Shown here piece by piece: positions 1 to 63,363 of a stretch of 64,000 nucleotides of DNA; position 1 is the stretch's first letter, and every line of letters begins with the position of its first letter. Source of the stretch: the human T2T-CHM13v2.0 reference genome, Homo sapiens. The stretch lies in the NCBI RefSeq assembly GCF_009914755.1, contig NC_060933.1. One strand, 5' to 3'. The notes below the pieces were generated by a model, which saw nothing but the letters and a program-made list of their open reading frames with translations, made no database searches and was not told the DNA's origin. A program made the position numbers and the translations under genes.

Positions 1-37
1 TGGAATGGCATGGAATGGAATGGAATGGAATGGAATG

Positions 38-6447: not shown

Positions 6448-6462
6448 GGAATCTTCCAGAAT
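6448..6462. promoter_or_regulatory. Perfect three-unit heat-shock element, first in window
   Basis: gGAAtcTTCcaGAAt matches nGAAnnTTCnnGAAn. Motif match only, occupancy untested. Confidence 0.6.
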
Positions 6463-7285
6463 GGAATGGAATGGAATGGAATGGAATCAACCCGAGTACA
6501 ATGGAATGGACTGGAATGGAATGGAATGGAATGGAACAACCCGAATGGAATGGAATGTAATGGAGAGTAAAGGAGTTAAATAGAATCATTCCGAATGTAA
6601 TGGAATGGAATGGAACGGAATGGAATTGAATGGAATGGAATGGAATGCAACGGAATGGAATCAATCCGAGTGCAATGGAATGGAGAGGAATGGAATGGAA
6701 TGGAATGGAAACTACCCGAATGGAATGGAATGTAATGGAGTGTAAGAGAATTGAATAGAATCAATCCGAATGTAATGGAATGGAATGGAAAGGAATGGAA
6801 TGGAATGGAATGGAATGGAATGGAATCAACCCGAGTGCAATCGAATGGAATCGAATGGAATGCAATGCAATGGAATGGATTCAACTTGAATGGAATGGAA
6901 AGAATGGAATCAACACGAGTGGAATGACATGGAGTGGAATGGAATGGAATGGAATCAACCCGAGTACAGGGGAATGGAATGGAATGGAATGCAATGGAAT
7001 GGAATCATCCGTAATGGAATGGAAAGGAATGGAATGGAATGGAATGGAATGGAATGGAATGGAATGGAATCAACTCGATTGCAATCGAATGGAATGGAAT
7101 GGAATTAACCCAAATAGAATGGAATGGAATGGAATGGAACGGAACGGAATGGAATGGAATGGAATGGAATGGAATGGAATGGAATGGAACGGAACGGAAC
7201 GGAACGGAATGGAATGGAATGGAATGGAATGGAATGGAATCAACGCGAGTGCAGGGGAATGGAATGGAATGGAATGCAATGGAAT

Positions 7286-7300
7286 GGAATCTTCCGGAAT
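7286..7300. promoter_or_regulatory. Perfect heat-shock element, commonest form (representative of ~42 copies)
   Basis: gGAAtcTTCcgGAAt. Motif match only. Confidence 0.6.
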
Positions 7301-8049
7301 GGTATGGAATGGAATGGAATGGAATCAACCCGAGTTCAATGAAATGGAGAGGAATGGAATGGAATGGAATGGAAACTACCCGAATGGAATGGAATGTAAT
7401 GGAGTGTAAGGGAATTGAATAGAATCAATCCGAATGTAATGGGATGGAATGGAACGCAATGGAATGGAATGGAATGGAATGGAATGGAATGGAATGGAAT
7501 GGAATGGAATGCAATGGAATGGAATCAACCCGAGTGCAATCGAATGGAATCGAATGGAATGGAATGCAATGGAATGGATTCAACTTGAATGGAATGGAAA
7601 GAATGGAAACAACACGAGTGGAATGACATGGATTGGAATGGAATGGAATGGAATCAACCCGAGTACAGGGGAATGGAATGGAATGGAATGCAATGGAATG
7701 GAATCATCCGTAATGGAATGGAAAGGAATGGAATGGAATGCAATGGAATGGAATGGAATGGAATCAACTCGATTGCAATCGAATGGAATGGAATGGAATT
7801 AACCCGAATAGAATGGAATGGAATGGAATGGAACGGAACGGAATGGAATGGAATGGAATGGAATGGAATGGAATGGAATGGAATGGAACGGAACGGAACG
7901 GAACGGAATGGGATGGAATTGAATGGAATGGAATGGAATCAACGCGAGTGCAGGGGAATGGAATGGAATGGAATGCAATGGAATGGAATCTTCCAGAATG
8001 GAATGGAATGGAATGGAATGGAATGGAATGGAATCAACCCGAGTGCAAT

Positions 8050-11000
8050 GGAATGGAGTGGAATGGAATGGAATGGAATGGAACAACCCGAATGGAATGG
8101 AATGTAATGGAGAGTAAGGGAGTTGAATAGAATCAATCCGAATGTAATGGAATGGAATGGAACGGAATGGAATTGAATGGAATGGAATGGAATGCAATGG
8201 AATGGTATCAACCCGAGTGCAATGGAATGTAGAGGAATGGAATGGAATGGAATGGAAACTACCCGAATGGAATGGAATGTAATGGAGTGTAAGGGAATTG
8301 AATAGAATCAATCCGAATGTAATGGAATGGAATGGAACGGAATGGAATGGAATGGAATGGAATGGAATGGAATGGAATGCAATGGAATGGAATCAATCCG
8401 AGTGCAATCGAATGGAATCGAATGGAATGGAATGCAATGGAATGGAATCAACTTGAATGGAATGGAAAGAATGGAATCAACAGGAGTGGAATGGCATGGA
8501 TTGGAATGGAATGGAATGGAATCAACCCGAGTACAGGGGAATGGAATGGAATGGAATGCAATGGAATGGAATCATCCGTAATGGAATAGAAAGGAATGGA
8601 ATGGAATGGAATGGAATGGAATGGAATGGAATGGAATGGAATGGAATCAACTCTATTGCAATGGAATGGAATGGAATGGAATTAACCCGAATAGAATGGA
8701 ATGGAATGGAATGGAACGGAACGGAATGGAATGGAATGGAATGGAACGTAACGGAATGGAATGGATGGAATGGAATGGAATCAACGCGAGTGCAGGGGAA
8801 TGGAATGGAATGGAATGCAATGGAATGGAAACTTCCGGAATGGAATGGAATGGAATGGAATGGAATGAAATGCAATGGATTCAACTCGATTGCAATGGAA
8901 TGGAATAGAATGGAATGAAATGGAATGGAATGCAATTAATCCGAATAGAATGGAATGGAATGGAATGGAACGGAATGGAACAGAATGGAATGGAATGGAA
9001 TGGAATGGTATGGAATAGAATGGAATGGTACGGAATAGAATGGAATGGAACGAATTGTAATGGAATGGAATTGAATGGAATGGAATGGAATGGAATGGAA
9101 TCAACGCGAGTGCAGGGGAATGTAATGGAACGGAATGCAATGGAATGGAATCATCCGGAATGGAATGGAATGGAATGGAATGGAATGGAATGGAATGGAA
9201 TGGAATCAACCCGAGTGAAATGGAATGGAGTGGAATGGAATGGAATGGAAAGGAACAACCCGAATGCAATGGAATGTAATGGAGAGTAAGGGAGTTGAAT
9301 AGAATCAATCCGCATGTAATGGAATGGAATGCAACGGAATGGAATGGAATGGAATGGAATGGAATGCAATGGAATGGAATCAACCCGAGTACAATGGAAT
9401 GGAATGGAATGGAATGGAATGGAATGGAATGGAATGATACGGAATAGAATGGAATGGAACGAAATGGAATTGAACGGAAAGGAATGGAATGGAATGGAAT
9501 GGAATCGTTCCGAGTGGAATAGGAGGGAATGTATTCGAGTGGAATGGAAAGGAATGGAATCAACCAGAGTGGAATGGAAGGGAATGGAATGGAATGGAAA
9601 CTAATAGAATGGAATCAACCCGAGTGGAATGGAATGGAAAGGACTGGAATGGAATGGAATGGAATGGAATCAACACGTTTGTAATGGAATGGAATGGAAT
9701 GGAATGGAATGGAATGGAATGGAATTAACCCAAATACAATGCAAGGGAATGGAATGGAATGGAAACTAATAGAATGGAATCAACCCGAGTGGAATGGAAT
9801 GGAAAGGACTGGAATGGAATGGAATGGAATGGAATCAACTCGATTGTAATGGAATGGAATGGAATGGAATGGAATGGAATTAACCCGAATACAATGGAAT
9901 GGAATGGAATGGAATGGAATGGAGTGGAATGGAATGGAATCAACCCGAGTGCAGGGGAATGGAATGGAATGGAATGCAATGGAATGGAATCATCCGGAAT
10001 GGAATTGAATGGAATGGAATGCAAAGCAATGGAATCAACTCGATTGCAATGGAATGGAATGGAATGGAAAGGAATACATTGGAATCAACCCGAGTGGAAT
10101 GGAATGGAAAGGACTGGAATGGAGTGGAATGGAATGGAATGCAATGGAATGGAATGGAATGGAATCAACTTGATTGGAATGGAATGGAATGGAATGGAAT
10201 GGAATGCAATGGAATGGAATCAACCCGACTGCAGGGGAATGGAATGGAATGGAATGCAATGGAATGGATTCAACTTGAATGGAATGGAAAGAGTGGAATC
10301 AACACGAGTGGAATGGCATGGATTGGAATGGAACGGAATGGAATCAACCCGAGTACAGGGGAATGGAATGGAATGGAATGCAATGGAATGGAATCATCCG
10401 TAATGGAATGGAAAGGAATGGAATGGAATGGAAAGGAATGGAATGGAATGGAATGGAATGGAATGGAATGGAATGGAATGGAATCAACTCGATTGCAATC
10501 GAATGGAATGGAATGGAATTAACCCGAATAGAATGGAATGGAATGGAATGGAACGGAACGGAATGGAATGGAATGGAATGGAATGGAATGGAATGGAACG
10601 GAACGGAATGGAATGGAATGGAATGGAATGGAATGGAATCAACGCGAGTGCAGGGGAATGGAATGGAATGGAATGCAATGGAATGGAATCTTCCGGAATG
10701 GAATGGAATTGAATGGAATGGAATGGAATGGTATGGAATAAACCCGAGTGCAATGGAATGGAGTGGAATGGAATGGAATGGAATGGAACAACCCGAATGG
10801 AATGGAATGTAATGGAGAGTAAGGGAGTTGAATAGAATCTATCCGAATGTAATGGAATGGAATGGAACGGAATTGAATGGAATGGAATGGAATGGAATGC
10901 AATGGAATGGAATCAACCCGAGTTCAATGAAATGGAGAGGAATGGAATGGAATGGAATGGAAACTACCCGAATGGAGTGGAATGTAATGGAGTGTAAGGG

Positions 11001-14000
11001 AATTGAATAGAATCAATCCGATTGTAATGGAATGGAATGGAACGGAATGGAATGGAATGGAATGGAATGGAATGGAATGGAATTCAATGGAATGGAATCA
11101 ACCCGAGTGCAATCGAATGGAATCGAATGGAATGGAATGCAATGGAATGGATTCAACTTGAATGGAATGGAAAGAATGGAATCAACACGAGTGGAATGAC
11201 ATGGATTGGAATGGAATGGAATGGAATCAACCCGAGTACAGGGGAATGGAATGGAATGGAATGCAATGGAATGGAATCATCCGTAATGGAATGGAATGGA
11301 ATGGAATGGAATGGAATGGAATGGAATGGAATGGAATGGAATCAACTCGATTGCAATCGAATGGAATGGAATGGAATTAACCCGAATAGAATGGAATGGA
11401 ATGGAATGGAACGGAACGGAATGGAATGGAATGGAATGGAATGGAACGGAAAGGAAGGGAATGGAATGGAATAGAATGGAATGCAATGGAATCAACGCGA
11501 GTGCAGGGGAATGGAATGGAATGGAATGCAATGGAATGGAATCTTCCGGAATGGAATGGAATGGAATGGAATGGAATGGAATGGAATGGAATCAACCCGA
11601 GTGCAATGGAATGCAGTGGAATGGAATGGAATGGAATGGAACAACCCGAATGGAATGGAATGTAATGGAGAGTAAGGGAGTTGAATAGAATCAATCCGAA
11701 TGTAATGGAATGGAATGGAACGGAATGGAATGGAATGGAATGGAATGGAATGCAATGGAATGGAATGGAATGGAATGCAATGGAATGGAATCAACCCGAG
11801 TGCAATGGAATGGAGAGGAATGGAATGGAATGGAATGGAAACTACCCGAATGGAATGGAATGTAATGGAGTGTAAGGGAATTGAATAGAATCAATCCGAA
11901 TGTAATGGAATGGAATGGAACGGAATGGAATGGAATGGAATGGAATGGAATGGAATGGAATGCAATGGAATGGAATCAACCCGAGTGCAATCGAATGGAA
12001 TCGAATGGAATGGAATGCAATGGAATGGAATCAACTTGAATGGAATGGAAAGAATGGAATCAACACGAGTGGAATGGCATGGATTGGAATGGAATGGAAT
12101 GGAATCAACCCGAGTACAGGGGAATGGAATGGAATGGAATGCAATGGAATGGAATCATCCGTAATGGAATGGAAAGGATTGGAATGGAATGGAATGGAAT
12201 GGAATGGAATGGAATGGTATCAACTCGATTGCAATCGAATGGAATGGAATGGAATTAACACAAATAGAATGGAATGGAATGGAACGGAACGGAATGGAAT
12301 GGAATGGAATGGAATGGAACGGAACGGAATGGAATGGAATCGAATGGAATGGAATCAACGCGAGTGCAGGGGAATGGAATGGAATGGAATGCAATGGAAT
12401 GGAAACTTCCGTAATGGAATGGAATGGAATGGAATGGAATGAAATGCAATGGATTCAACTCGATTGCAATGGAATGGAAGAGAATGGAATGAAATGGAAT
12501 GGAATGCAATTAATCCGAATAGAATGGAATGGAATGGAATGGAACGGAATGGAACGGAATGGAATGGGATGGAATGGAATGGAATGGTATGGAATGGAAT
12601 GGAATGGTACGGAATAGAATGGAATGGAACGAATTGTAATGGAATGGAATTGAATGGAATGGAATGGAATGGAATGGAATCAACGCGAGTGCAGGGGAAT
12701 GTAATGGAACGGAATGCAATGGAATGGAATCATCCGGAATGGAATGGAATGGAATGGAATGGAATGGAATCAACCCGAGTGCAATGGAATGGAGTGGAAT
12801 GGAATGGAATGGAATGGAACAACCCGAATGGAATGGAATGTAATGGAGAGTAAGGGAGTTGAATAGAATCAATCCGAATGTAATGGAATGGAATGGAACA
12901 AAATGGAATTGAATGGAATGGAATGGAATGCAACGGAATGGAATCAACCCGAGTACAATGGAATGGAATGGAATGGAATGGAATGGAATGGAATGGAATG
13001 ATACGGAATAGAATGGAATGGAACGAAATGGAATTGAATGGAAAGGAATGGAATGGAATGGAAAGGAATCGTTCCGAGTGGAATAGGAGGGAATGTATTC
13101 GAGTGGAATGGAAAGGAATGGAATCAACCAGAGTGGAATGGAAGGGAATGGAATGGAATGGAAACTAATAGAATGGAATCAACCGGAGTGGAATGGAATG
13201 GAAAGGACTGGAATGGAATGGAATGGAATGGAATCAACTCGTTTGTAATGGAATGGAATGGAATGGAATGGAATGGAATGGAATGGAATGGAATTAACCC
13301 GAATACAATGGAAGGGAATGGAATGGAATGGAAACTAATAGAATGGAATCAACCCGAGTGGAATGGAATGGAAAGGACTGGAATGGAATGGAATGGAATG
13401 GAATCAACTCGATTGTAATGGAATGGAATGGAATGGAATGGAATGGAATGGAATTAACCCGAATACAATGGAATGGAATGGAATGGAATGGAATTGAATG
13501 GAATGGAGTGGAATGGAATGGAATCAACCCTAGTGCAGGGGAATGGAATGGAATGGAATGCAATGGAATGGAATCATCCGGAATGGAATCGAATGGAATG
13601 GAATGCGAAGCAATGGAATCAACTCGATTGCAATGGAATGGAATGGAATGGAAAGGAATACATTGGAATCAACCCGAGTGGAATGGAATGGAAAGGACTG
13701 GAATGGAGTGCAATGGAATGGAATGCAATGGAATGGAATGGAATGGAATCAACTTGATTGGAATGGAATGGAATGGAATGGAATGGAATGGGATCAACTT
13801 GATTGGAATGGAATGGAATGGAATGGAATGGAATGGAATCAACCCGACTGCAGGGGAATGGAATGGAATGCAATGCAATGGAATGGATTCAACTTGAATG
13901 GAATGGAAAGAATGGAATCAACACGAGTGGAATGGCATGGATTGGAATGGAATGGAATGGAATCAACCCGATTAAAGGGGAATGGAATGGAATGGAATGC

Positions 14001-14200: not shown

Positions 14201-17200
14201 AATTAACCCGAATAGAATGGAATGGAATTAAATGGAACGGAACGGAATGAAATGGAATGGAAGGGAATGGAATGGAATGGAATGGAATCAACCCGACTGC
14301 AGGGGAATGGAATGGAATGGAATGCAATGGAATGGATTCAACTTGAATGGAATGGAAAGAATGGAATCAACACGAGTAGAATGGCATGGATTGGAATGCA
14401 ATGGAATGGTATCAACCCGAGTACAGGGGAATGGAATGGAATGGAATGCAATGGAATGGATTCAACTTGAATGGAAAGGAAATAATGGAATCAACACGAG
14501 TGGAATGGCATGGATTGGAATGGAATGGAATGGAATCAACCCGAGTACAGGGGAATGGAATGGAATGGAATGCAATGGAATGGAATCATCCGTAATGGAA
14601 AGGAAAGGAATGGAATGGAATGGAATGGAATGGAATGGAATGGAATGGAATGGAAGTAAAAGGAATAGAATGGAATGAACCCGAGTACAGGGGAATGGAA
14701 TGGAATGGAATGCAATGGAATGGAATCATCCGTAATGGAATGGAAAGGAATGGAATGGAATGGAAGGGAATGGAATGGAATGGAATCAACTCGATTGCAA
14801 TGGAATGGAATGGAATGGAATTAACCTGAATAGAATGGAATGGAATGGAATGGAACGGAACGGAACGGAATGGAATGGAATGGAATGGAATGGAATGGAA
14901 CGGAAAGGAATGGAATGGAATGGAACGGAAAGGAATGGAATGGAATGGAATGGAATGGAAAGGAACGGAACGGAATGGAATGGAATGGAATGGAATCAAC
15001 GCGAGTGCAGGGGAATGAAATGTAATGGAATGCAATGGAATGGAATCTTCCGGAATGGAATGGAATGGAACGGAATCAACCCGAGTGCAATGGAATGGAG
15101 TGGAATGGAATGGAATGGAATGGAACAACCCTAATGGAATGGAATGTAATGGAGAGTAAGGGAGTTGAATAGAATCATTCCGAATGTAATGGAATGGAAT
15201 GGAACGGAATGGAATTGAATGGAATGGAATGGAATGCAATGGAATGGAATCAACCCGAGTGCAATGGAATGGAGAGGAATGGAATGGAATGGAATGGAAA
15301 CTACCCGAATGGAATGGAATGTAATGGAGTGTAAGGGAATTGAATAGAATCAATCTGAATGTAATGGAATGGAATGGAACGGAATGGAATGGAATGGAAT
15401 GGAATGGAATGCAATGGAATGGAATGGAATCAACAAGAGTGCAATCTAATGGAATCGAATGGAATGCAATGCAATGGAATGGATTCAACTTGAATGGAAT
15501 GGAAAGAATGGAATCAACACGAGTGGAATGGCATGGATTGGAATGGAATGGAATGGAATCAACCCGAGTACAGGGGAATGGAATGGAATGGAATGCAATG
15601 GAATGGAATCATCCGTAATGGAATGGAAAGGAATGGAATGGAATGGAAAGAATGGAATGGAATGGAATGGAATGGAATGGAATGGAATCAACTCGATTGC
15701 AATCGAATGGAATGGAATGGAATTACCCAAATAGAATGGAAAGGAATGGAATGGAACGGAACGGAATGGAATGGAATGGAATGGAATGGAATGGAATGGA
15801 ATGGAATGGAATCAACGCGAGTGTAGGGGAATGGAATGGAATGGAATGCAATGGAATGGAATCTTCCGGAATGGAATGGAATGGAATAGAATGAAATGCA
15901 ATGGACTCAACTCGATTGCAATGGAATCGAATAGAATGGAATGGAATGGAATGGAATGGAATTAACCCGAATAGAATGGAATGGAATGGAATGGAAAGGA
16001 ATGGAACGGAATGGAATGGAATGGAATGGAATGGAATGGAATGGTATGGAATGGAATGGAATGGTACGGAATAGAATGGAATGGAACGAATTGTAATGGA
16101 ATGGAACTGAATGGAATGGAATGGAATGGAATGGAATCAACGCGAGTGCAGGGGAATGTAATGGAACGGAATGCAATGGAATGGAATCATCCGGAATGGA
16201 ATGGAATGGAATGGAATGGAATGCAATGGAATGGAATCAACACGAGTACAATGGAATGGAATGGAATGGAATGGAATGGAATGGAATGGAATGGATTGGA
16301 ATGCCTTCAAACCGAATGGAATGGAAAGGAATGCAATCAACACGAGTGGAATGGAATGGAATGGAAAGGAATGGAATGGAATGGAATGGTACGGAATAGA
16401 ATGGAATGGAACGAAATGGAATGGAATGGAATGGAATAGAATGGAATCGTTCAGAGTGGAATAGGAGGGAACGTATTCGAGTGGAATGGAAAGGAATGGA
16501 ATCAACCAGAGTGGAATGGAAGGGAATGGAATGGAATGGAAACTAATAGAATGGAATCAACCCGAGTGGAATGGAATGGAAATGACTGGAACGGAATGGA
16601 ATGGAATGGAATGGAATGGAATAGAATGGAATCAACTCGATTGTAATGGATTGGAATGGAATGGAATTGAATGGAATGGAATGGAATTAACCCGAATAAA
16701 ACGGAATGGAATGGAATGGAATGGAATGGAGTGGAATGGAATGGAATCAACCCGAGTGCAGGGGAACGGAATGGAATGGAATGCAATGGAATGGAATCAT
16801 CCGGAATGGAATGGAATGGAATGGAATGCAAAGCAATGGAATCAACTCGATTGCAATGGAATGGAATGGAATGGAAAGGAATACATTGGAATCAACCCGA
16901 GTGGAATGGAATGGAAAGGACTGGAATGGAGTGGAATGGAATGGAATGGAATGGAATGGAATCAACTCGATTGGAATGGAATGGAATGGAATGGAATGGA
17001 ATGGAATTAACCCGAATAGAATGGAATGGAATTAAATGGAAAGGAACGGAATGGAATGGAATGGAATGGAATGGAATGGAATCAACCCGACAGAAGGGGA
17101 ATGGAATGGAATGGAATGCAATGGAATGGAATCAACCCTAGTACAATGGAATGGAATGGAATGGAATGGAATGGAATGGAATGGAATGGAATTGAATGGA

Positions 17201-34770: not shown

Positions 34771-34785
34771 GGAATCTTCCGGAAT
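34771..34785. promoter_or_regulatory. Perfect heat-shock element nearest the junction on the left
   Basis: gGAAtcTTCcgGAAt, about 380 bp from the strand switch. Confidence 0.55.
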
Positions 34786-50450: not shown

Positions 50451-53400
50451 TCCATTCCATTCCATTCCATTCCATTCCATTGCACACGGGTTCATTCCAT
50501 TCCATTCCATTCTATTCCATACCTTTCTATTCCATTTCATTCCATTCCATTCTAATCCGTACCATTCCATTCCATCCCATTCCATTCCGTTCCATTCCAT
50601 GCCATTACACTCGGGTTGATTCCATTCCATTCCATTCCATTCCGTTCCGGATGATTCCATTCCATTCCATTCCATTCCATTCCATTCCATTCCATTCCAT
50701 TCCATTGCACTCGGGTTTATTCCATTCCATTCCATTCCATTCCATTCCATTCCATTCCATTCCGGAAGATTCCATTCCATTGCATTCCATTCCATTCCAT
50801 CTCCCTGCACTCGCGTTGATTCCATTCCATTCCATTCCATTCCATTCCATTCCATTCCATTCCTTTCCATTCCATTACGGATGATTCCATTCCATTGCAT
50901 TCCATTCCATTCCATTCCCCTGTACTCGGGTTGATTCCATTCCATTCCATTCCAATCCACGCCATTCCACTCGTGTTGATTCCATTCTTTCCATTCCATT
51001 CAAGTTGAATCCATTCCATTGCATTCTATTCCATTCGATTCCATTCGATTGCACTCGGGTTGATTCCATTCCTTTGCATTCCATTCCATTCCATTCCATT
51101 CCTTTCCATTCCATTCCATTCCATTCCGTTCCATTCCATTCCATGCCATTCTATTCGGGTTAATTCCATTCCATTCCATTCCATTCCATTCCATTCCATT
51201 CCATTCCATTCCATTCCATTCCATTCCAATCGAGTTGATTGAATTCCATTCCATTCCATTCCATTCCACTCCATTCCAGTCCTTTCCATTACTTTACACT
51301 TGGGTTGATTCCATTCTATTCCTTTCCATTCCATTCCATTCCATTGCAATCGAGTTGATTCCATTGCTTTGCATTCCATTCCATTCCATTCCATTCCGGA
51401 TGATTCCATTCCATTGCATTCCATTCCATTCCATTCCAGTTCGTTCCATTCCATTCTATTCCGTACCATTCCATTCCATTCCTTTCCTTTCCATTCCATT
51501 CTTTTCCACTCGTGTTGATTCCATTCCTTTCCATTCCATTCGGTTTGAAGGCATTCCATTCCATTCAATTCCATTCCATTGCATTCCATTCCATTCCATT
51601 CTATTCCATTCCATTGCAATCGAGTTGAATCCATTGCCTTTCATTCCATTCCATTCCATTCCATTCCATTCCGGAAGATTCCATTCCATTACATTCCATT
51701 CCATTCCATTCCCCTGCACTCGCGTTGATTCCATTCCATTCCATTCCATTCCATTCCGTTCCGTTCCATTCCATTCCATTCCATTCCATTCCATTCAGTT
51801 CCGTTCCATTCCATTCCATTCCATTCTATTCGGGTTAATTCCATTCCATTCCATTCGATAGCCATCGTGTTGATTCCATTCCATTCCATTCCATTCCATT
51901 CCATTCCATTGCTTTCCATTCCATTACGGATGACTCCATTCCATTGCATTCCATTCCATTCCATTCCCCTGTACTCGGGTTGATTCCATTCCATTCCATT
52001 CCACTCCATTCGGTTCCGTTGCATTCCATTCTATTGCATTATATTCTATTCGGGTTAATTCCATTCCATTCTATTCCATTCCATTCCATTCCATTCCATT
52101 GCAATGGAGTTGATTCCATTCCATTCCATTCCATTCCGGATGATTCCATTCCATTGCATTCCATTCCATTCCATTCCCCTGCACTCGTGTTGATTCCATT
52201 CCATTCCATTCCATTCCATTCCGTTCCATTCCATTCCATTCCATTCCATTCCGTTTAATTCCATTCCATTCCATTCCATTCCATTCCATTGCAATCGAGT
52301 TGTTTCCATTCCATTCCTTTCCATTCCATTCCATTGCCTTGCATTCCACTCGGGTTGATTCCATTCCCTTCTTTCCACTCCATTACATTCCCTTCCATTC
52401 CACTCGGAATGATTGATTCCATTCCATTCCATTCCATTTCATTCCATTTCAATCCATTCCAATCCATTCCATTCCATTCCATTCCACTCGAGTTGACTTC
52501 ATTCCATTCCTTTCCATTCCATTCCATTCCTTTCCACTCGAGTTGATTCCATTCCATTCCAATCCATTGTATTCCATTCCATGCGATTCCACTCGGGTTG
52601 ATTCCATTCCTTTGCATTCCATTCCATTCCATTCCATTGCATTCCATTCAATTCCATTCCGTTGCATTCCATTCCATTACATTCGGATTGATTCTATTCA
52701 ACTCCCTTACTCTCCATTCCATTCCATTCCATTCGGGTTGTTCCATTCCATTCCATTCCATTCCATTCCGGATGATTCCATTCCATTGCATTCCGTTCCA
52801 TTACATTCCCCTGCACTCGCGTTGATTCCATTCCATTCCATTCCATTCCATTCAATTCCATTCCATTACAATTCTTTCCATTCCATTCTATTCCGTACCA
52901 TTCCATTCCATTCCATTCTATTCCATTTCATTCCATTCAATTCCATTCCATTCCATTCCATTCCGTTCCATTCCGTTCCATTCCATTCCATTCCATTCCA
53001 TTCGGGTTAATTCCATTCCATTCCATTCCATCCCATTCTATTACATTCCATTGCAATCGAGTTGAATCCATTGCATTTCATTCCATTCCATTCCATACCA
53101 TTCCGTTCCATTCCGGAAGATTCCATTCCATTGCATTCCATTCCATTCCATTCCCCTGCACTCGCGTTGATTCCATTCCATTCCATTCCATTCCATTCCT
53201 TTCCATTCCATTCCATTCCGTTCCGTTCCATTCCATTCCATTCTATTCGGGTTAATTCCATTCCATTCCATTCGATTGCAATCGAGTTGATTCCATTCCA
53301 TTCCATTCCATTCCATTCCTTTCCATTCCATTACGGATGATTCCATTCCATTCCATTCCATTCCATTCCATTCCCCTATACTCGGGTTGATTCCATTCCA

Positions 53401-56400
53401 TTCCATTCCATTCCATTCAATTCCATTCCATTACAATTCGTTCCATTCCATTATATTCCGTATCATTCCATTCCTTTCCATACCATTCCATTCTATTCGG
53501 ATTAATTCCATTCCATGTCATTCCATTCCATTCTATTCCATTCCATTGCAATCGAGTTGAATCCATTGCATTTCATTCCATTCCATTCCATTCCATTCCG
53601 GAAGTTTCCATTCCATTGCATTCCATTCCATTCCATTCCCCTGCACTCGCGTTGATTCCATTCCATTCCATTCCATTCCATTCCGTTCCGTTCCATTCCT
53701 TTCCATTCCATTCTATTTGGGTTAATTCCATTCCATTCAATTCGATTGCAATCGAGTTGATTCCATTCCATTCCATTCCATTCCATTCCATTCCATTCCT
53801 TTCCATTCCATTACGGATGATTCCATTCCATTCCATTCCATTCCATTCCATTCCATTCCGTTCCTTTCCATTCCATTCCATTCTATTCGGGTTAATTCCA
53901 TTCCATTCCATTCCATTCCATTCCATTCTATTCCATTCCATTGCAATCGAGTTGAATCCATTGCATTTCATTCCATTCCATTCCATTCCATTCCATTCCG
54001 GAAGATTCCATTCCATTGCATTCCATTCCATTCCATTCCCCTGCACTCGCGTTGATTCCATTCCATTCCATTCCATTCCATTCCATTCCATTCCATCCAT
54101 TCCATTCCGTTCTGTTCCATTCCATTCCATTCCATTCCATTCCATTCCGTTCCGTTCCATTCCATTCCACTCCATTCTATTCGGGTTAATTCCATTCCAT
54201 TCCATTCGATTGCAATCGAGTTGATTCCATTCCATTCCATTCCATTCCATTCCATTCTATTCCATTCCATTCCTTTCCATTCCATTACGGATGATTCCAT
54301 TCCATTGCATTCCATTCCATTCCATTCCCCTGTACTCGGGTTGATTCCATTCCATTCCATTCCAATCCACGCCATTCCACTCGTGTTGATTCCATTCTTT
54401 CCATTCCATTCAAGTTGAATCCATTCCATTGCATTCTATTCCATTCGATTCCATTCGATTGCACTCGGGTTGATTCCATTCCATTGCATTCCATTCCATT
54501 CCATTCCATTCCTTTCCATTCCATTCCATTCCATTCCGTTCCATTCCATTCCATGCCTTTCTATTCGGGTTAATTCCATTCCATTCCATTCCATTCCATT
54601 CCATTCCATTCCATTCCAATCGAGTTGATTGCATTCCATTCCATTCCATTCCATTCCATTCCTTTCCATTCCATTCCATTCCGTTCCGTTCCATTCCATT
54701 CCATTCTATTCGGGTTAATTCCATTCCATTCCATTCGATTGCAATCGAGTTGATTCCATTCCATTCCATTCCATTCCATTCCTTTCCATTCCATTACGGA
54801 TGATTCCATTCCATTCCATTCCATTCCATTCCATTCCATTCCATTCCATTCCATTCCATTCCATTCCCCTATACTCGGGTTGATTCCATTCCATTCCATT
54901 CCAATCCATGCCATTCCACTCGTGTTGATTCCATTCTTTCCATTCCATTCAAGTTGAATCCATTCCATTGCATTCCATTCCATTCGATTCCATTCGATTG
55001 CACTCGGGTTGATTCCATTCCATTGCACTCCATTCCATTCCATTTCATTCCATTCCATTCCTTTCCATTCCATTCCATTCCATTCCATTCCATTCCATTC
55101 CATTGCAATCCAGTTGATTCCATTCCATTCCTTTCCATTCCATTCCATTGCCTTGCATTCCACTCGGGTTGATTCCATTCCCTTCTTTCCACTCCATTAC
55201 ATTCCCTTCCATTCCACTCGGAATGATTGATTCCATTCCATTCCATTCCATTTCATTCCATTGCAATCCATTCCAATCCATTCCATTCCATTCCATTCCA
55301 CTCGAGTTGATTTCATTCCATTCCATTCCATTCCATTGCATTCCATTCCATGGCATTCCACTCGGGTTGATTCCATTCCATTCCATTCCATTCCATTCCA
55401 TTCCATTCCATTCCATTGCATTCCATTCCATTCCTTTCCCTACACTCGGGTTGATTCCATTCCATTCCATTCCATTTAATTCCATTCCATTCCATTCCAT
55501 TCCATTCCAATCCGTTCCATTCCATTCCATTCCATTCCATTCCTTTCCGTTCCATTCCATTCCATTCCATTCCACTCGGGTTGATTCCATTCCTTTCCAT
55601 TCCATTCGGGTTGAATCCAATCCACTCCATTCCATTCCATTCAAATCCATTCCATTGCACTCGGGTTGATTCCATTCCATTCCATTCCATTCGATTCGAT
55701 TCCATTCCATTCCATTCCGTTCAATTCCATTTCATTACGTTCAGATTGATTCTATTCAATTCCCTTACACTCCATTATATTCCAATCCATTCTGGTTGTT
55801 TCCATTCCATTCCATTCCATTTCACTCCATTCCATTGCACTCGGTTTGATTCCATTCCATTCCATTCCATTCCATTCCATTCCGGATGATTCCATTCCAT
55901 TGTATTCCATTCCATTCCATTCCCCTGCACTCAGGTTGATTCCATTCCATTCCATTCCACTCCATTCCATTCCGTTCCTTTCCATTCCATTCCATTCCAT
56001 TCTATTCGGCTTAATTCCATTCCATTCCATTCGATTGCCATCGAGTTGATTCCATTCCATTGCATTCCATTCCATTCCATTCCATTCCATTCCTTTCCAT
56101 TCCATTACGGATGACTCCATTCCATTGCATTCCATTCTATTCCATTCCCCTGTACTCGGGTTCATTCCATTCCATTCCATTCCACTCCATTCGGTTCCGT
56201 TGCATTCCATTCTATTGCATTCCATCTATTCGGGTTAATTCCATTCCATTCTATTCCATTCCATTCCATTCCATTCCATTCCGTTCCATTCCGTTCCATT
56301 CCATTCCATTCCATTCTATTCGAGTTAATTCCATTCCATTCCATTCCATTCCATTCCATTCTATTCCATTCCATTGCAATCGAGTTGAATCCAATGCATT

Positions 56401-59400
56401 TCATTCCATTCCATTCCATTCCATTCCATTCCGGAAGATTCCATTCCATTGCATTCCATTCCATTCCATTCCCCTGCACTCGCGTTGATTCCATTCCATT
56501 CCATTCCATTCCATTCCATTCCATTCCGTTCCGTTCCGTTCCGTTCCGTTCCGTTCCGTTCCATTCCATTCCATTCCCTTCCATTCCATTCCGTTCCGTT
56601 CCATTCCATTCCATTCCATTCTATTCGGGTTAATTCCATTCCATTCCATTCGATTGCAATCGTGTTGATTCCATTCAATTCCATTCCATTCCATTCCATT
56701 CCATTCCATTCCTTTCCATTCCATTACGGATGATTCCATTCCATTGCATTCCATTCCATTCCATTCCCCTGTACTCGGGTTGATTCCATTCCATTGCATT
56801 CCAATCCATGCCTTTCCACTCGTGTTGATTCCATTCTTTCCATTCCATTCAAGTTGAATCCATTCCGTTGCATTCCATTCCATTGGATTCCATTCGATTG
56901 CACTCGGGTTCATTCCATTCCATTGCATTCCATTCCATTCCATTCCATTCCATTCCGTTCCTTTCCATTCCATTACATTCGGATTGATTCTATTCACTTC
57001 CCTTACACTCCATTACATTCCATTCCATTCGGGTAGTTTCCATTCCATTCCATTCCATTCCTCTCCATTCCATTGCACTCGGGTTGATTCCATTCCATTG
57101 CATTCCATTCCATTCCACTCAATTCCATTACGTTCCATTCCATTCCATTACATTCGGATTGGTTCTATTCAACTCCGTTAGTCTCCATTACATTCCATTC
57201 CATTCGGGTTGTTCCATTCCATTCCATTCCATTCCACTCCATTCCATTGCACTCGGGTTGATTCCATTCCATTCCCTTCCATTCCAATCAATTCCATTCC
57301 ATTCCGGAAGATTCCATTCTTTTGCATTCCATTCCATTCCGTTCCCCTGCACTCGCGTTAATTCCATTCCATTCCATTCCATTCCATTCCATTCCATTCC
57401 TTTCCGTTCCTTTCCATTCCATTCCATTCCATTCCGTTCCGTTCCGTTCCATTCCATTCCATTCCATTCGGGTTAATTCCATTCCATTGCATTTGATTGC
57501 AATCGAGTCGATTCCATTCCATTCCATTCCATTCCATTCCATTCCATTCCTTTCCATTCCATTACGGATGATTCCATTCCATTGCATTCCATTCCATTCC
57601 ATTCCCCTGTACTCGGGTTGATTCCATTCCATTCCATTCCAATCCATGCCATTCCACTCGTGTTGATTCCATTCTTTCCATTCCATTCAAGTTGAATCCA
57701 TTCCATTGCTTTCCATTCCATTCCATTCCCCTGCAGTCGGGTTGATTCCATTCCATTCCATTCCATTCCATTCCATTCCATTCCGTTCCGTTCCATTCCA
57801 TTCCATTCCTTTCTATTCGGGTTAATTACATTCCATTCCATTCCATTCCATTCCACTCCAATCAAGTTGATTCCATTCCATTCCATTCCATTCCATTCCA
57901 TTCCATTCCACTCCATTCCAGTCCTTTCCATTCCATTCCTCTCAGGTTGATTCCAATGTATTCCTTTCCATTGTATTCCATTCCATTGCAATCGAGTTGA
58001 TTCCATTGCTTTGCATTCCATTCCATTCCATTCCATTCCGGATGATTCCATTCCATTGCATTGCATTCCATTCCATTCCCCTGCACTCGGGTTGATTCCA
58101 TTCCATTCCACTCCATTCCGTTCCGTTCCATTACCTTCCCCTGCACTCGGGTTGATTCCATTCCATTCCATTCCATTCCATTCGATTCCATTCCATTCCC
58201 CTGCACTCGCGTTGATTCCATTCCATTCCATTCCATTGCATTCCATTCCATTCCATTCCATTCGATTCCATTCCTTTCCATTCCAGTCGTTTCCATTCCA
58301 TTCCACTCGGGTTGATTCCATTCTATTAGTTTCCATTCCATTCCATTCCCTTCCATTCCACTCTGGTTGATTCAATTCCTTTCCATTCCACTCAGGTTGA
58401 TTCCATTCTATTAGTTTCCATTCCATTCCATTCCCTTCCATTCCACTCTGGTTGATTCCATTCCTTTCCATTCCACTCGTATACATTCCCTCCTATTCCA
58501 CTCGGAACGATTCCATTCCATTCCATTCCATTCCATTGCATTCCATTCCATTCCATTTCGTTCCATTCCATTCTATTCCGTATCATTCCATTCCATTCCA
58601 TTCCATTCCATTCCATTCCATTCCATTCCACTCGTGTTGATTCCATTGCTTTCCATTCCATTCCGTTTGAAGGCATTCCATTCCATTCCATTCCATTCCA
58701 TTCCATTCCATTCCATTGTACTCGGGTTTATTCCATTCCATTGCATTCCATTCAATTCCATTCCATTCCATTCCATTCCGTTGCATTCCATTCCATTACA
58801 TTCGGATTGATTCTATTCAACTCCCTTACTCTCCATTACGTTCCATTCCATTTGGGTTGTTCCATTCCATTCCATTCCATTCCACTCCATTCCATTGCAC
58901 TCGGGTTGATTCCATTCCATTCCATTCCATTCCATTCCATTCCGGATGATTCCATTCCATTGCATTCCGTTCCATTACATTCCCCTGCACTCGCGTTGAT
59001 TCCATTCCTTTCCATTCCATTCCATTCAATTCCATTCCATTACAATTCGTTCCATTCCATTCTATTCCGTACCATTCCATTCCATTCCATACCATTCCAT
59101 TCCATTCCATTCCATTCCATTCCGTTCCATTCCATTCCATTCCATTCTATTCCGGTTAATTCCATTCCATTCCATTCCATTCCATTCCATTCTATTCCAT
59201 TCCATTGCAATCGAGTTGAATCCATTGCATTTCATTCCATTCCATTCCATTCCATTCCATTCCGGAAGATTCCATTCCATTGCATTCCATTCCATTCCAT
59301 TCCCCTGCACTCGCGTTCATTCCATTCCATTCCATTCCATTCCATTCCATCCATTCCGTTCCGTTCCGTTCCATTCCATTCCATTCCATTCCGTTCCGTT

Positions 59401-62400
59401 CCATTCCATTCCATTCCATTCTATTCGGGTTAATTCCATTCCATTCCATTCGATTGCAATCGACTTGATTCCATTCCATTCCATTCCATTCCATTCCATT
59501 CCATTCTTTCCATTCCATTACGGATGATTCCATTCCATTGCATTCCATTCCAATCCATTCCCCTGTACTCGGGTTGATTCCATTCCATTCCATTCCAATC
59601 CATACCATTCCACTCGTGTTGATTCCATTCTTTCCATTCCATTCAAGTTGAATCCATTCCATTGCATTCCATTCCATTCGATTCCATTCGATTGCACTCG
59701 GGTTGATTCCATTCCATTGCATTCCATTTCATTCCATTTCATTCCATTCCATTCCTTTCCATTCCATTCCTTTCCAATCCATTCCATTCCATTTCAATCG
59801 CGTTGATTCCATTCCATTCCTTTCCATTCCATTCAATTGCCTTGCATTCCACTCGGGTTGATTCCATTCCCTTCTTTCCACTCCATTACATTCCCTTCCA
59901 TTCCACTCGGAATGATTGATTCCATTCCATTCCATTCCATTTAATTCCATTGCAATCCATTCCAATCCATTCCATTCCATTCCATTCCACTCGAGTTGAT
60001 TTCATTCCATTCCATTCCATTCCATTCCACTCCATTCCAGTCCTTTCCATTCCATTCCACTCGCGTTGATTCCAAAGTATTCCTTTCCATTCCATTCCAT
60101 TCCATTGCAATCGAGTTGATTCCATTGCTTTGCATTCCATTCCATTCCATTCCATTCCGGGTGATTCCATTCCATTGCATTCCATTCCATTCCATTCCCC
60201 TGCACTCGGGTTGATTCCATTCCATTCCACTCCATTCCGTTCCATTCCATTCCATTCCACTGTATTCGGGTTAATTCCATTCCATTCCATTCCATTCCAT
60301 TCCATTCCATTACAATCGAGTTGATTCCATTCCATTCCATTCCATTCCAGTCCTTTCCATTCCATTCCACTCGGGTTGATTCCATTCTATTAGTTTCCAT
60401 TCCATTCCATTCCCTTCCATTCCACTCTGGTTGATACCATTCCTTTCCATTCCACTCGAACACATTCCCTCCTATTCCACTCGGAACGATTCCATTCCAT
60501 TCCATTCCATTCCATTCCATTCCATTCCATTCCATTCCATTCCACTTCGTTCCATTCCATTCTATTCCGTATCATTCCATTCCATTCCATTCCATTCCAT
60601 TGTACTCGGGTTGATTCAATTCCATTGCATTCCATTCCATTCCATTCCATTCCATTCCGTTGCATTCCATTCCATTACATTCGGATTGATTCTATTCAAC
60701 TCCCTTACTCTCCATTACATTCCATTCCATTCGGGTTGTTCCATTCCATTCCATTCCATTCCACTCCATTCCATTGCACTCGGGTTGATTCCATTCCATT
60801 CCATTCCATTCCATTCCATTCCATTCCAATCCGGATGATTCCATTCCATTGCATTCCGTTCCATTACATTCCCCTGCACTCGCATTGATTCCATTCCATT
60901 CCATTCAATTCCATTCCATTACACTTCGCTCCATTCCATTCTATTCCGTATCATTCCATTCCATTCCATACCATTCCATTCCATTCCATTCCATTCCATT
61001 CCGTTCCGTTCCATTCCGTTCCATTCCATTCCATTCCATTCTATTCGAATTAATTCCATTCCATTCCATTCCATTCCATTCTATTCCATTCCATTGCAAT
61101 CGAGTTGAATCCATTGCATTTCATTCCATTCCATTCCATTCCATTCCATTCCATTCCGGAAGATTCAATTCCATTGCATTCCATTCCATTCCATTCCCCT
61201 GCACTCGCGTTGATTCCATTCCATTCCATTCCATTCCATTCCATTCCATTCCGTTCCGTTCCGTTCCATTCCATTCCATTCCATTCCATTCCGTTCCGTT
61301 CCTTTCCATTCCATTCCATTCTATTCGGGTTAATTCCATTCCATTCCATTCGATTGCAATCGAGTTGATTCCATTCCATTCCATTCCATTCCATTCCACT
61401 CCATTCCATTCCATTCCTTTCCATTCCATTACGGATGATTCCATTCCATTGCATTCCATTCCATTCCATTCCTCTGTACTCGGGTTGATTCCATTCCATT
61501 CCATTCCAATCCATGCCATTCCACTCGTGTTGATTCCATTCTTTCCATTCCATTCAAGTTGAATCCATTCCATTGCATTCCATTCCATTCGATTCCATTC
61601 GATTGCACTCGGGTTGATTCCATTCCATTGCATTCCATTCCATTCCATTCCATTCCATTCCGTTCCATTCCATTCCGTTCCATTCCATTCCATTACATTC
61701 GGATTGATTCTACTCAATTCCCTTACACTCCATTACATTCCATTCCATTCGGGTAGTTTCCATTCCATTCCATTCCATTCCTCTCTATTCCATTGAACTC
61801 TGGTTGATTCCATTCCATTGCATTCCATTCCATTCCATTCAATTCCATTCCGTTCCATTCCATTCCATTATATTCGGATTTATTCTATTCAACTCCCTTA
61901 CTCTCCATTACATTCCATTCCATTCGTGTTGTTCCATTCCATTCCATTCCATTCCACTCCATTCCATTGCACTCGGGTTTATTCCATTCCATTCCATTCC
62001 ATTCCGGAAGATTCCATTCCATTGCATTCCATTCCATTCCATTCCCCTGCACTCGCGTTGATTCCATTCCATTCCATTCCATTCCATTCCATTGCATTCC
62101 ATTCCATTCCATTCCATTCCATTCCATTCCTTTCCGTTCCATTCCATTCCATTCCATTCCATTCCATTCCTTTCCAATCCATTCCATTCCGTTCCGTTCC
62201 GTTGCATTCCATTCCATTCCATTCTATTCGGGTTAATTCCATTCCATTCCATTCGATTGCAATCGAGTTGATTCCATTCCATTCCATTCCATTCCATTCC
62301 ATTCCATTCCATTCCTTTCCATTCCATTACGGATGATTCCATTCAATTGCATTCCATTCCATTCCATTCCCCTGTACTCGGGTTGATTCCATTCCATTCC

Positions 62401-63348
62401 ATTCCAATCCATGCCATTCCACTCGTGTTGATTCCATTCTTTCCATTCCATTCAAGTTGAATCCATTCCATTGCATTCCATTCCATTCCATTCCCCTGCA
62501 GTCGGGTTGTTTCCATTCCATTCCATTCCATTCCCTTCCATTCCACAATCGTAGATTCTATTCCTTTCCATTCCACTCGAATACATTTCCTCCTATTCCA
62601 CTCGGAACGATTCCATTCCATTCCATTCCATTCCATTCCATTCCATTCCATTCCATTTCGTTCCATTCCATTCTATTCCGTATCATTCCATTCCATTCCG
62701 TTCCATTCCATTCCATTCCATTCCACTCGTGTTGATTCCATTCCTTTCCATTCCATTCGGTTTGAAGGCATTCCATTCCATTCCATTCCATTCCATTCCA
62801 TTCCATTCCATTCCATTGTACTCGGGTTGATTCCATTCCATTGCATTCCATTCCATTCCATTCCATTCCATTCCGTTGCATTCCATTCCATTACATTCGG
62901 ATTGATTCTATTCAACTCCCTTACTCTCCATTACATTCCATTCCATTCGGGTTGTTCCATTCCATTCCATTCCATTCCACTCCATTCCATTGCACTAGGG
63001 TTGATTCCATTCCATTCCATTCCATTCCATTCCAGATGATTCCATTCCATTGCATTCCGTTCCATTACTTTCCCCTGCACTCGCGTTGATTCCATTCCAT
63101 TCCATTCAATTCCATTCCATTACAATTCGTTCCATTCCATTCTATTCCGTACCATTCCATTCCATTCCATACCATTCCATTCCATTCCATTCCATTCCAT
63201 TCCACTCGTGTTGATTCCATTCCTTTCCATTCCATTCGGTTTGAAGGCATTCCATTCCATTCCATTCCATTCCATTCCATTCCATTCCATTCTATTCCAT
63301 TCCATTGCAATCGAGTTGAATCCATTGCATTTCATTCCATTCCATTCC

Positions 63349-63363
63349 ATTCCGGAAAATTCC
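63349..63363. promoter_or_regulatory. Perfect heat-shock element, last in window
   Basis: aTTCcgGAAaaTTCc. Confidence 0.5.

What the first reader, a model, noticed from the sequence alone, without database searches (positions are those of the whole stretch)
6448..63363. About 42 perfect heat-shock elements carried by one satellite module
Seen: GGAATCTTCCGGAAT is an exact nGAAnnTTCnnGAAn, which plain (GGAAT)n is not because it lacks the inverted unit. Hand-counted starts, left: 6448, 7286, 7985, 8827, 10685, 11538, 15042, 15858, 17848, 18072, 19920, 20144, 21258, 23125, 24003, 25341, 29052, 29741, 30410, 32178, 34771. Right: 37839, 38727, 39821, 40156, 44567, 45981, 46664, 47332, 47751, 50234, 50759, 51668, 53110, 53595, 53995, 56428, 57301, 59259, 61153, 62001, 63349. 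That is roughly one per 1.4 kb, usually just after CAACGCGAGTGCAGGGG. Established: HSF1 trimers bind this motif, and HSF1 forms nuclear stress bodies on 9q12 SatIII and drives its transcription. Inference: this module may be the discrete HSF1 docking site and could explain why this subfamily is the main target.
Basis: partly seen in the sequence, partly recalled or inferred. Interest (0 to 1): 0.8.

Follow-up and report, generated by a model that had tools for sequence, protein, structure and literature searches.

The report
Heat-shock elements in chromosome 9 satellite
One sub-repeat of the giant chromosome 9 satellite carries a textbook binding site for the heat-shock factor HSF1, copied over ten thousand times, which fits the known gathering of HSF1 there during stress and is already known in outline.

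Summary
All 42 listed starts are nGAAnnTTCnnGAAn. Of these, 31 are the exact word GGAATCTTCCGGAAT. A 43rd site, at 38448-38462, was missed. Shuffles give 3.4 sites.

39 of the 43 sites lie 45 nt after a CAACGCGAGTGCAGGGG-type anchor. They are copies of one HSat3 sub-repeat, not independent events. The word differs by one base (A>T) from its more common sister, GGAATCATCCGGAAT.

Genome-wide, the 15-mer occurs at least 12,700 times and the sister 20,563 times. Both start at the chr9 array, and sampling suggests nearly all copies lie there. Three other words on Yq12 add 14,146 sites. Together these four words make up 35% of all 76,189 perfect three-unit HSEs in the assembly. Samples of chr15 HSat3 (35 kb) and chr1/chr16 HSat2 (35 kb) hold none.

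The motif core is no better conserved than its flanks (1.59% against 1.55% substitutions per site).

These sites are probably the high-affinity HSF1 docking points of 9q12. HSF1 occupancy was not tested here. In print there are already array-level HSF1 motif maps that track ChIP-seq signal, and a mention of putative 9q12 HSEs. What this report adds is the base-level module, its one-base origin and the counts.

The parts
7241..7300 (+). Representative full module: anchor CAACGCGAGTGCAGGGG (7241-7257), then 28 nt of GGAAT-type pentamers ending GCAATGGAAT, then the HSE word (7286-7300)
6448..6462 (+). perfect HSE, GGAATCTTCCAGAAT (CpG-decay variant in the spacer)
7286..7300 (+). perfect HSE, exact 15-mer
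7985..7999 (+). perfect HSE, GGAATCTTCCAGAAT
8827..8841 (+). perfect HSE, GGAAACTTCCGGAAT
10685..10699 (+). perfect HSE, exact 15-mer
11538..11552 (+). perfect HSE, exact 15-mer
15042..15056 (+). perfect HSE, exact 15-mer
15858..15872 (+). perfect HSE, exact 15-mer
17848..17862 (+). perfect HSE, exact 15-mer
18072..18086 (+). perfect HSE, exact 15-mer, without the usual anchor (recombinant upstream)
19920..19934 (+). perfect HSE, exact 15-mer
20144..20158 (+). perfect HSE, exact 15-mer, without the usual anchor; lies 2,072 bp after the matching site at 18072
21258..21272 (+). perfect HSE, exact 15-mer
23125..23139 (+). perfect HSE, exact 15-mer
24003..24017 (+). perfect HSE, exact 15-mer
25341..25355 (+). 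perfect HSE, exact 15-mer
29052..29066 (+). perfect HSE, exact 15-mer
29741..29755 (+). perfect HSE, exact 15-mer
30410..30424 (+). perfect HSE, GGAAACTTCCGGAAT
32178..32192 (+). perfect HSE, exact 15-mer
34771..34785 (+). perfect HSE, exact 15-mer; last site before the strand switch
37839..37853 (-). perfect HSE, GGAATCTTCAGGAAT
38727..38741 (-). perfect HSE, GGAATCTTCAGGAAT
39821..39835 (-). perfect HSE, exact 15-mer
40156..40170 (-). perfect HSE, exact 15-mer; anchor only 30 nt upstream (15-nt deletion)
44567..44581 (-). perfect HSE, GGAAACTTCCGGAAT
45981..45995 (-). perfect HSE, exact 15-mer
46664..46678 (-). perfect HSE, GGAATCTTCAGGAAT
47332..47346 (-). perfect HSE, exact 15-mer
47751..47765 (-). 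perfect HSE, exact 15-mer
50234..50248 (-). perfect HSE, exact 15-mer
50759..50773 (-). perfect HSE, exact 15-mer
51668..51682 (-). perfect HSE, exact 15-mer
53110..53124 (-). perfect HSE, exact 15-mer
53595..53609 (-). perfect HSE, GGAAACTTCCGGAAT
53995..54009 (-). perfect HSE, exact 15-mer
56428..56442 (-). perfect HSE, exact 15-mer
57301..57315 (-). perfect HSE, exact 15-mer
59259..59273 (-). perfect HSE, exact 15-mer
61153..61167 (-). perfect HSE, TGAATCTTCCGGAAT
62001..62015 (-). perfect HSE, exact 15-mer
63349..63363 (-). perfect HSE, GGAATTTTCCGGAAT

Best explanation
The sites are real, perfect three-unit heat-shock elements (GGAAT-CTTCC-GGAAT). They sit in one variant of a roughly 60-nt HSat3 sub-repeat: a CAACGCGAGTGCAGGGG anchor, 28 nt of pentamers, then the word. 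The variant differs by one base (A>T in the middle unit) from the commoner word GGAATCATCCGGAAT in sister sub-repeats. It spread through the 27.6-Mb chr9 array by satellite amplification and now has at least 12,700 exact copies, about one site per 1.4-1.7 kb. On heat shock, HSF1 trimers most likely dock on these sites. Their sheer number in one locus gives the visible HSF1 focus, and the recruited co-activators and Pol II transcribe the GGAAU strand. Shown here: the motif, the module, its one-base relation to the sister word, the copy numbers, its near-restriction to chr9, and its absence from sampled chr15 HSat3 and HSat2. Taken from the literature: that HSF1 binds this array and activates it. 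Inferred: that this word, rather than the bulk repeat, is what HSF1 holds on to. The site looks like a by-product of satellite turnover that HSF1 can use, and there is no sign of motif-specific constraint.
For: Motif and module. In the window nearly every inverted GAA/TTC pair belongs to these trimers (43 TTCnnGAA, 44 GAAnnTTC, 43 trimers). Among 592 GAGT[G/A]CAGGGG-anchored sub-repeats in 244 kb of the chr9 array, the word at +45 is CATCCGG in 151, CATCCGT in 111, the exact HSE in 100 and other HSE-keeping variants in at least 25. Genome counts are 12,700 for the 15-mer against 3 for the reversed control, 16,624 for the anchor and 13,335 for the HSE in satellite context, of which only 6 lie before the chr9 array in contig order. 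In 18 systematic 10-kb samples of the array (50.0-74.6 Mb) there are 108 perfect HSEs and 85 exact 15-mers. That is 4.7 exact copies per 10 kb, which over 27.6 Mb predicts about 13,000, close to the genome total. Yq12, the other published primary stress-body site (PMC7889540), has three different perfect HSE words per 3.55-kb unit, with 4,836, 4,895 and 4,415 copies. The chr9 15-mer and the three Y words together make 26,846 of 76,189 perfect HSEs in the assembly. The reversed control gives 43,994, so the excess is 32,195. Seven 5-kb samples of chr15 HSat3 hold 0 perfect HSEs and 0 inverted pairs. Seven 5-kb samples of chr1/chr16 HSat2 hold 0 perfect HSEs. The HSat3 transcription-factor preprint reports HSF1 motifs in sub-regions of HSat3 arrays and heat-shock HSF1 ChIP-seq enrichment where motif density is high (10.1101/2024.10.22.616524, passages; figure not seen). 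By consensus the satellite word is at least as good as the HSP70 probe used as 'consensus HSE' in PMC2173303, which contains GGAATATTCCCGAC, that is two perfect units plus GAC.
Against: No HSF1 occupancy data were analysed here, so binding to this word is inferred. EMSA in PMC2173303 showed HSF1 binding to the 158-bp 9q12 clone pHuR98, whose NGAAN organisation the authors said differs from a canonical HSE. Non-canonical binding to SatIII therefore exists. I did not see the pHuR98 sequence and cannot say whether it contains the module. The motif core is not better conserved than its flanks: 19 changes in 133x9 core sites (1.59%) against 62 in 133x30 flank sites (1.55%). In the published SEA table, HSF1 motif enrichment is about 10 on chr9 blocks but 18.6 on chr15_HSat3A5_428 and 13-47 on small HSat3A1 arrays, so PWM-level density does not single out chr9. 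One-mismatch sites (8 of 9 core bases) outnumber perfect ones in the window by about 81 to 43. The HSE is symmetric and cannot by itself explain why mainly the G-rich strand is transcribed (PMC2241877). Genome counts are stated by the tool to be lower bounds.
Confidence: 0.6

Rival explanations
1. HSF1 accumulates at 9q12 mainly through many weak contacts, and the perfect module adds little. The weak contacts would be the one-mismatch sister words, the long direct (GGAAT)n runs, unusual DNA structure or permissive chromatin, followed by condensation.
For: PMC2173303 reports HSF1 EMSA shifts with pHuR98, needing more protein than the HSE probe. It describes the clone's NGAAN layout as non-canonical and suggests that HSF1 recognises secondary structure. 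One-mismatch sites are about twice as frequent as perfect ones in the window. The sister word has 20,563 copies against 12,700. Reviews speak of 'HSE-like sequences scattered' in HSat3 (PMC10505914). Phase separation of HSF1 on satellite motifs has also been proposed.
Against: Bulk GGAAT content does not predict the target. Samples of chr15 HSat3 and chr1/chr16 HSat2 are GGAAT-rich but have no perfect HSE, and they are not the primary sites. Secondary sites appear only with HSF1 overexpression or harsher stress (PMC9032817). The two primary sites are exactly the two arrays with about 13,000 and 14,000 perfect HSEs. ChIP-seq signal is reported to follow motif density within arrays.
Confidence: 0.25
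2. The word is a functionally inert by-product of satellite turnover, or it serves another factor. Its reverse complement contains CCGGAAG, an ETS-type core (consensus recalled, not tested). The same A>T change that made the HSE turned CCGGATG into CCGGAAG.
For: The HSE core shows no extra conservation over its flanks. All copies trace to one or two mutations that were then amplified. The CCGGAAG reading follows directly from the sequence.
Against: HSF1 recruitment to this very array is among the best-documented cases of a factor binding a satellite. The HSat3 preprint found only one ETS-family motif, ETV5-FOXO1, heavily enriched in HSat3. The central CpG would be methylated in heterochromatin, which I recall disfavours ETS binding (not tested).
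Confidence: 0.1

Closest known systems
HSF1 motif map of T2T HSat3 arrays with heat-shock ChIP-seq (preprint 10.1101/2024.10.22.616524 / PMC11526998)
   Same: Same genome, same array, same factor. HSF1 motifs are reported in sub-regions of HSat3 arrays, and ChIP-seq enrichment is reported where motif density is high. The per-array enrichment table includes 235 chr9_HSat3B5 blocks.
   Different: That work scores a JASPAR PWM in 50-bp substrings against promoters (SEA). In the passages and table I read it names no sequence module and no word. This report gives the exact word, its carrier sub-repeat, its one-base sister and strict-consensus counts. The strict counts disagree with the table for chr15: 0 sites in 35 kb here against an enrichment of 18.6 for chr15_HSat3A5_428.
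Perfect HSEs in the Y-chromosome SATIII unit (PMC7889540)
   Same: Canonical HSEs are interspersed in an HSat3 repeat that forms primary stress bodies. HSF1 ChIP was positive near one site.
   Different: The words and the carrier differ. I find three words per 3.55-kb DYZ1 unit in T2T-Y samples, where the paper reports four in X06228. Their origin is independent of the chr9 word. Density is about 8.4 per 10 kb against about 6 on chr9.
Proximal HSE of the HSP70 promoter (probe printed in PMC2173303)
   Same: Contiguous inverted nGAAn units in 5-bp register. The first ten bases differ from the satellite word by one spacer base (GGAATATTCC against GGAATCTTCC).
   Different: The promoter HSE sits at a defined distance from a core promoter. 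The satellite word has three perfect units but no known start site nearby, and it is repeated more than 10,000 times in heterochromatin.
Putative 9q12 HSEs mentioned as an unpublished observation (PMC9032817)
   Same: States that putative HSEs occur over stretches of 9q12 SATIII and that their number is unknown.
   Different: The passages I read give no sequence, count or module.

Membership tests
Canonical (perfect-type) heat-shock element | At least three contiguous nGAAn units in alternating orientation and 5-bp register | tested here: met
   43 matches to GAANNTTCNNGAA in the window. All 42 listed starts were verified. No four-unit site is present.
Canonical (perfect-type) heat-shock element | Occupied by HSF1 trimers in vivo on heat shock | not testable with these tools
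   No ChIP reads were available. Array-level support comes from the literature only.
Canonical (perfect-type) heat-shock element | Confers heat-inducible transcription on nearby DNA | not testable with these tools
   SatIII induction by HSF1 is published. Start sites relative to the module are not mapped.
Canonical (perfect-type) heat-shock element | Motif kept by selection (core better conserved than surroundings) | tested here: not met
   Core 1.59% against flank 1.55% substitutions per site in 133 ungapped modules. This is not a defining feature of an HSE as a binding site, but it bears on whether the site has a selected function.
HSat3 (classical satellite III), chr9 array reported as subfamily B5 | (GGAAT)n interspersed with CAACCCGAGT-type decamers, inside the 27.6-Mb chr9 array | tested here: met
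   About 110 GGAAT per kb and CAACCCGAGT-type anchors throughout. The window lies at chr9:63.30 Mb, within the array that runs from 49.76 Mb to beyond 74.6 Mb. No k-mer subfamily classification was run here.
ETS-family site | CCGGAAG core (consensus recalled from memory) | tested here: inconclusive
   The core is present on the C-rich strand of every exact 15-mer. No PWM scan or occupancy data were available.

The most novel reading that the evidence does not exclude
A single A>T change in one HSat3 sub-repeat, once amplified to more than 10,000 copies, may be what made 9q12 the primary HSF1 and stress-body locus. Yq12 would have reached the same state independently through three different HSE words. 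On this reading the human stress-body sites are repeated, convergent births of transcription-factor platforms in satellites. The one-base sister word, with about 20,000 copies in the same array, is a built-in negative control that makes the idea testable from existing ChIP reads without mapping them.
Probability: 0.3. Interest if true: 0.55.

Novelty: already known. Interest (0 to 1): 0.33.

Why it matters
HSF1 binding to 9q12 satellite III is the classic case of heterochromatin switched on by stress. A 2002 paper noted that the cloned repeat did not look like a canonical HSE. A 2022 review still called the number of sites unknown.

This check gives the site a sequence, a carrier module, a one-base origin and a copy number. 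The four satellite words on chr9 and Y make up about a third of all perfect three-unit HSEs in the assembly.

The practical gain is a mapping-free test. One can compare reads that contain the T-word with reads that contain the A-word in existing heat-shock HSF1 ChIP data. The biology itself, that HSF1 motifs in HSat3 track ChIP signal, is already published.

Tried and rejected
1. Test for selection on the motif. I chose type-1 modules on their first 30 nt only: 152 in 244 kb, of which 133 were ungapped. I then compared substitutions in the 9 core positions, the 6 spacer positions and 30 flank positions. Core equals flank (1.59% against 1.55%). The spacer is higher (4.26%) because of the CpG and one amplified T>A variant. 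There is no sign of constraint. The copies are not independent, so the test is weak.

2. Extended HSEs. There is no four-unit site in the window.

Smaller samples were used instead, so the negative results rest on 35 kb of chr15 HSat3 and 35 kb of HSat2.

4. The samples at chr14:5.54 Mb and chr21:5.85 Mb were chosen because they contained a Y-type word. They are biased and were not used for density. chr12:38.44 Mb, chr15:14.0 Mb, chr9:48.0 Mb and chr9:49.0 Mb turned out not to be HSat2/3.

5. Literature searches for the 15-mer (0 papers), for TTCCGGAA with 'satellite' (41 papers, none of the 15 listed relevant) and for HSF1 + T2T + nuclear stress bodies + ChIP-seq (0 papers) found no base-level description. 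Subscription journals and figures are outside that library.

7. No PWM scoring, no ape or other human assemblies and no ChIP reads were available.

8. I looked for a reason why my strict count is zero on chr15 while the published SEA value for chr15_HSat3A5_428 is 18.6, and could not settle it. Either SEA's threshold accepts looser matches, or my samples lie outside that block.

Full report
OBSERVATION. The window is chr9:63,302,001-63,366,000 of T2T-CHM13, inside the 9q12 HSat3 array. The quoted word GGAATCTTCCGGAAT is present at 31 of them. The other 11 are variants that keep the motif: CTTCCAG at 2 sites, GGAAAC at 4, CTTCAGG at 3, TGAATC at 1 and GGAATTTTCC at 1. A two-strand scan for GAANNTTCNNGAA gives 43 sites against 3.43 +/- 1.77 in 100 dinucleotide-preserving shuffles. 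The extra site, 38448-38462 (-), reads GGAAACTTCCCGAAT. Spacing runs from 224 to 4,411 bp, with mean 1,355 and median 893.5. The first 6.4 kb of the window holds none. Sites are on + to the left and on - to the right because the satellite flips strand at about 35,155-35,170.

ANATOMY. Thirty-nine of the 43 sites lie 45 nt after a CAACGCGAGTGCAGGGG-type anchor, and the anchor is exact at 30 of them. One site (40156) has the anchor 30 nt upstream after a 15-nt deletion. Two sites (18072, 20144), 2,072 bp apart, lack the anchor. The site at 38448 is in another sub-repeat.

The carrier belongs to a family of sub-repeats of the form ...GAGT[G/A]CAGGGG, then AATGGAATGGAATGGAATGCAATGGAATGG, then a variable word. 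In 244 kb of the chr9 array (the window plus 18 samples) I found 592 such sub-repeats. The word at +45 is GGAATCATCCGGAAT in 151, GGAATCATCCGTAAT in 111, the exact HSE word in 100 and other HSE-keeping variants in at least 25. The HSE word is therefore one transversion (A>T in the middle unit) away from the commonest word. That sister word is itself an 8-of-9 near-HSE.

The site at 38448 arose by a separate A>T change in GGAAACTACCCGAAT. In the window the HSE module follows a CATCCGT-type module in 32 of 39 cases, at a median of about 280 bp, so it is part of a larger nested unit. Practically every inverted GAA/TTC pair in the window belongs to these trimers: 43 TTCnnGAA, 44 GAAnnTTC, 43 trimers and no four-unit site. 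The central CpG lies in the free spacer, so the CpG-decay variants (CCAG, CTGG) keep the motif.

CHANCE. The shuffle test is the wrong null for a satellite. The sites are amplified copies of one unit, so the window documents about two independent mutations, not 43.

GENOME-WIDE COUNTS. The tool states that its counts are lower bounds.
- Exact 15-mer: 12,700 (6,460 forward, 6,240 reverse) against 3 for the reversed control. The first copy in contig order is at chr9:49,755,937, so there are none on chr1-8 (numeric listing order shown).
- Anchor: 16,624, the first at chr9:49,755,892.
- Sister word: 20,563. One copy is on chr1 and one at chr9:48.55 Mb; the rest run from 49.756 Mb onwards.
- HSE in satellite context (GGAAWYTTCNNGAATGGAAT): 13,335. 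Only 6 lie before the chr9 array, 1 on chr1 and 5 on chr5.
- All perfect three-unit HSEs: 76,189 against 43,994 for the reversed control.

SAMPLING OF THE chr9 ARRAY. Of 20 systematic 10-kb samples between 48.0 and 74.6 Mb, 18 are HSat3 (50.0-74.6 Mb). They hold 108 perfect HSEs, ranging from 0 to 10 per 10 kb, and 85 exact 15-mers. The mean is 6.0 per 10 kb, with a bootstrap 95% interval of 4.7-7.2, which gives about 13,000-20,000 sites in 27.6 Mb. The rate of 4.7 exact copies per 10 kb predicts about 13,000, close to the genome total. Nearly all copies are therefore on chr9; this is an inference from sampling. Density is patchy: 0 at 51.4 Mb and 1 at 74.6 Mb.

OTHER ARRAYS.
- Yq12 DYZ1. Two 5-kb samples each hold three perfect HSEs with different words. 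Those words have 4,836, 4,895 and 4,415 copies, almost all on chrY at a period of about 3.55 kb. That is 14,146 sites, or about 8.4 per 10 kb.
- The chr9 15-mer plus the three Y words make 26,846 sites. This is 35% of all perfect HSEs in the assembly and 83% of the excess over the control.
- chr15 HSat3. Seven 5-kb samples between 6.5 and 13 Mb hold 0 perfect HSEs and 0 inverted pairs. At the chr9 density about 21 would be expected.
- HSat2. Four samples on chr1 and three on chr16 hold 0 perfect HSEs.
These negative results rest on small samples.

CONSTRAINT. I picked type-1 modules on their first 30 nt only: 152 modules, of which 133 are ungapped. Of these, 117 keep a perfect HSE. Substitutions per site are 1.59% in the 9 core positions, 1.55% in 30 flank positions and 4.26% in the 6 spacer positions. 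The motif is carried along by satellite homogenisation, and nothing suggests selection on it.

LITERATURE. For each paper I read passages found by term search, and figures are not held.
- PMC2173303 (2002) showed HSF1 on 9q11-q12 and EMSA binding to the clone pHuR98. It noted that the clone's NGAAN layout differs from a canonical HSE.
- PMC9032817 (2022 review) says putative HSEs occur over 9q12 SATIII ('our unpublished observation') and that the number of sites is unknown.
- PMC7889540 (2021) reports four perfect HSEs in a 3,564-bp Y SATIII unit, a positive HSF1 ChIP, and speculation that Yq12 has more HSEs than 9q12.
- PMC10505914 (2023 review) speaks of HSE-like sequences scattered in HSat3 and says start sites remain to be mapped.
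- Preprint 10.1101/2024.10.22.616524 scanned JASPAR motifs over all T2T HSat3 arrays. It states that HSF1 motifs are enriched in sub-regions and that heat-shock HSF1 ChIP-seq is enriched where motif density is high. Its supplementary table gives HSF1 enrichment of about 10 (mostly 6-13) for the 235 chr9_HSat3B5 blocks and 14.4-20.8 for the 43 chrY_HSat3A6 blocks. It gives 18.6 for chr15_HSat3A5_428 (column indexed by hand), 13-47 for HSat3A1 arrays and mostly 0 for HSat3A4. The chr9:Y ratio agrees with my strict counts. The chr15 value does not, and I could not resolve this.
- Preprint 10.1101/2021.07.12.452052 gives 27.6 Mb and more than 200 inversion breakpoints for the chr9 HSat3B5 array.
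- Searches for the word itself found nothing in print.

MECHANISM. Most likely (0.6), HSF1 trimers dock on these perfect sites, roughly 13,000-16,000 of them at spacings of about 1.5 kb. This produces the focus and recruits the transcription machinery. Transcripts of 2-5 kb and more would then span several modules, so the sites act as dispersed enhancer-like docks and not as one promoter element. The motif is symmetric, so the G-strand bias of transcription needs another cause. At strand switches such as 35.16 kb the two arms would be transcribed towards each other; this is an inference.

There are two rivals. In the first, HSF1 is held mainly by many weak sites and condensation (0.25). In the second, the word is an inert by-product or serves another factor, such as an ETS protein reading CCGGAAG on the other strand (0.1).

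VERDICT. Occupancy of the word is untested, and it is number, not density, that sets chr9 apart. The idea is already known at array level. The base-level module, its one-base sister word and the counts are a useful refinement that makes a mapping-free test possible.

Noticed in passing
window 35155-35175: There is a sharp strand switch of the satellite. The sequence reads GGAATGGAATCATCCCGAGT and is followed directly by TTGATTCCATTGC. GGAAT lies on + to the left and ATTCC on + to the right. If only the G-rich strand is transcribed, the two arms converge here. Two of the 18 chr9 samples (L011, L018) also contain a switch. This fits the more than 200 breakpoints published for this array.
   Followed up: partly
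window 17848-20158: There is a tandem duplication of about 2,072 bp. The HSE pairs 17848/18072 and 19920/20144 repeat with identical 224-bp spacing. The second member of each pair lacks the usual anchor.
   Followed up: no
G000 chr9:49.82-49.86 Mb (listing): Near the proximal edge of the array the 15-mer positions repeat with a period of about 14.04 kb (for example 49,821,305 / 49,835,348 / 49,849,396). This is a local large-scale duplication of the irregular repeat.
   Followed up: no
window 1-6447; L004 (chr9:51.40 Mb); L020 (chr9:74.60 Mb): These stretches of the same array have few or no HSE modules (0, 0 and 1). L020 is instead rich in the sister word, with 16 copies in 10 kb. The array is a patchwork of sub-variants.
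   Followed up: partly
G000 chr5:49.72-49.91 Mb: Five copies of GGAATCTTCCCGAATGGAAT, also a perfect HSE, lie in the chr5 pericentromeric satellite. This is the only other cluster seen before chr9 in contig order.
   Followed up: no
chr15 samples L023, L024, L030-L034: No inverted GAA/TTC pair occurs in 35 kb of chr15 HSat3. The published SEA table nevertheless gives an HSF1 enrichment of 18.6 for chr15_HSat3A5_428. The discrepancy is unexplained.
   Followed up: partly
window, whole: CpG count is 1,637 against 2,759 expected from base composition. The HSE module is relatively CpG-rich: CGCG in the anchor and CCGG in the HSE spacer.
   Followed up: no
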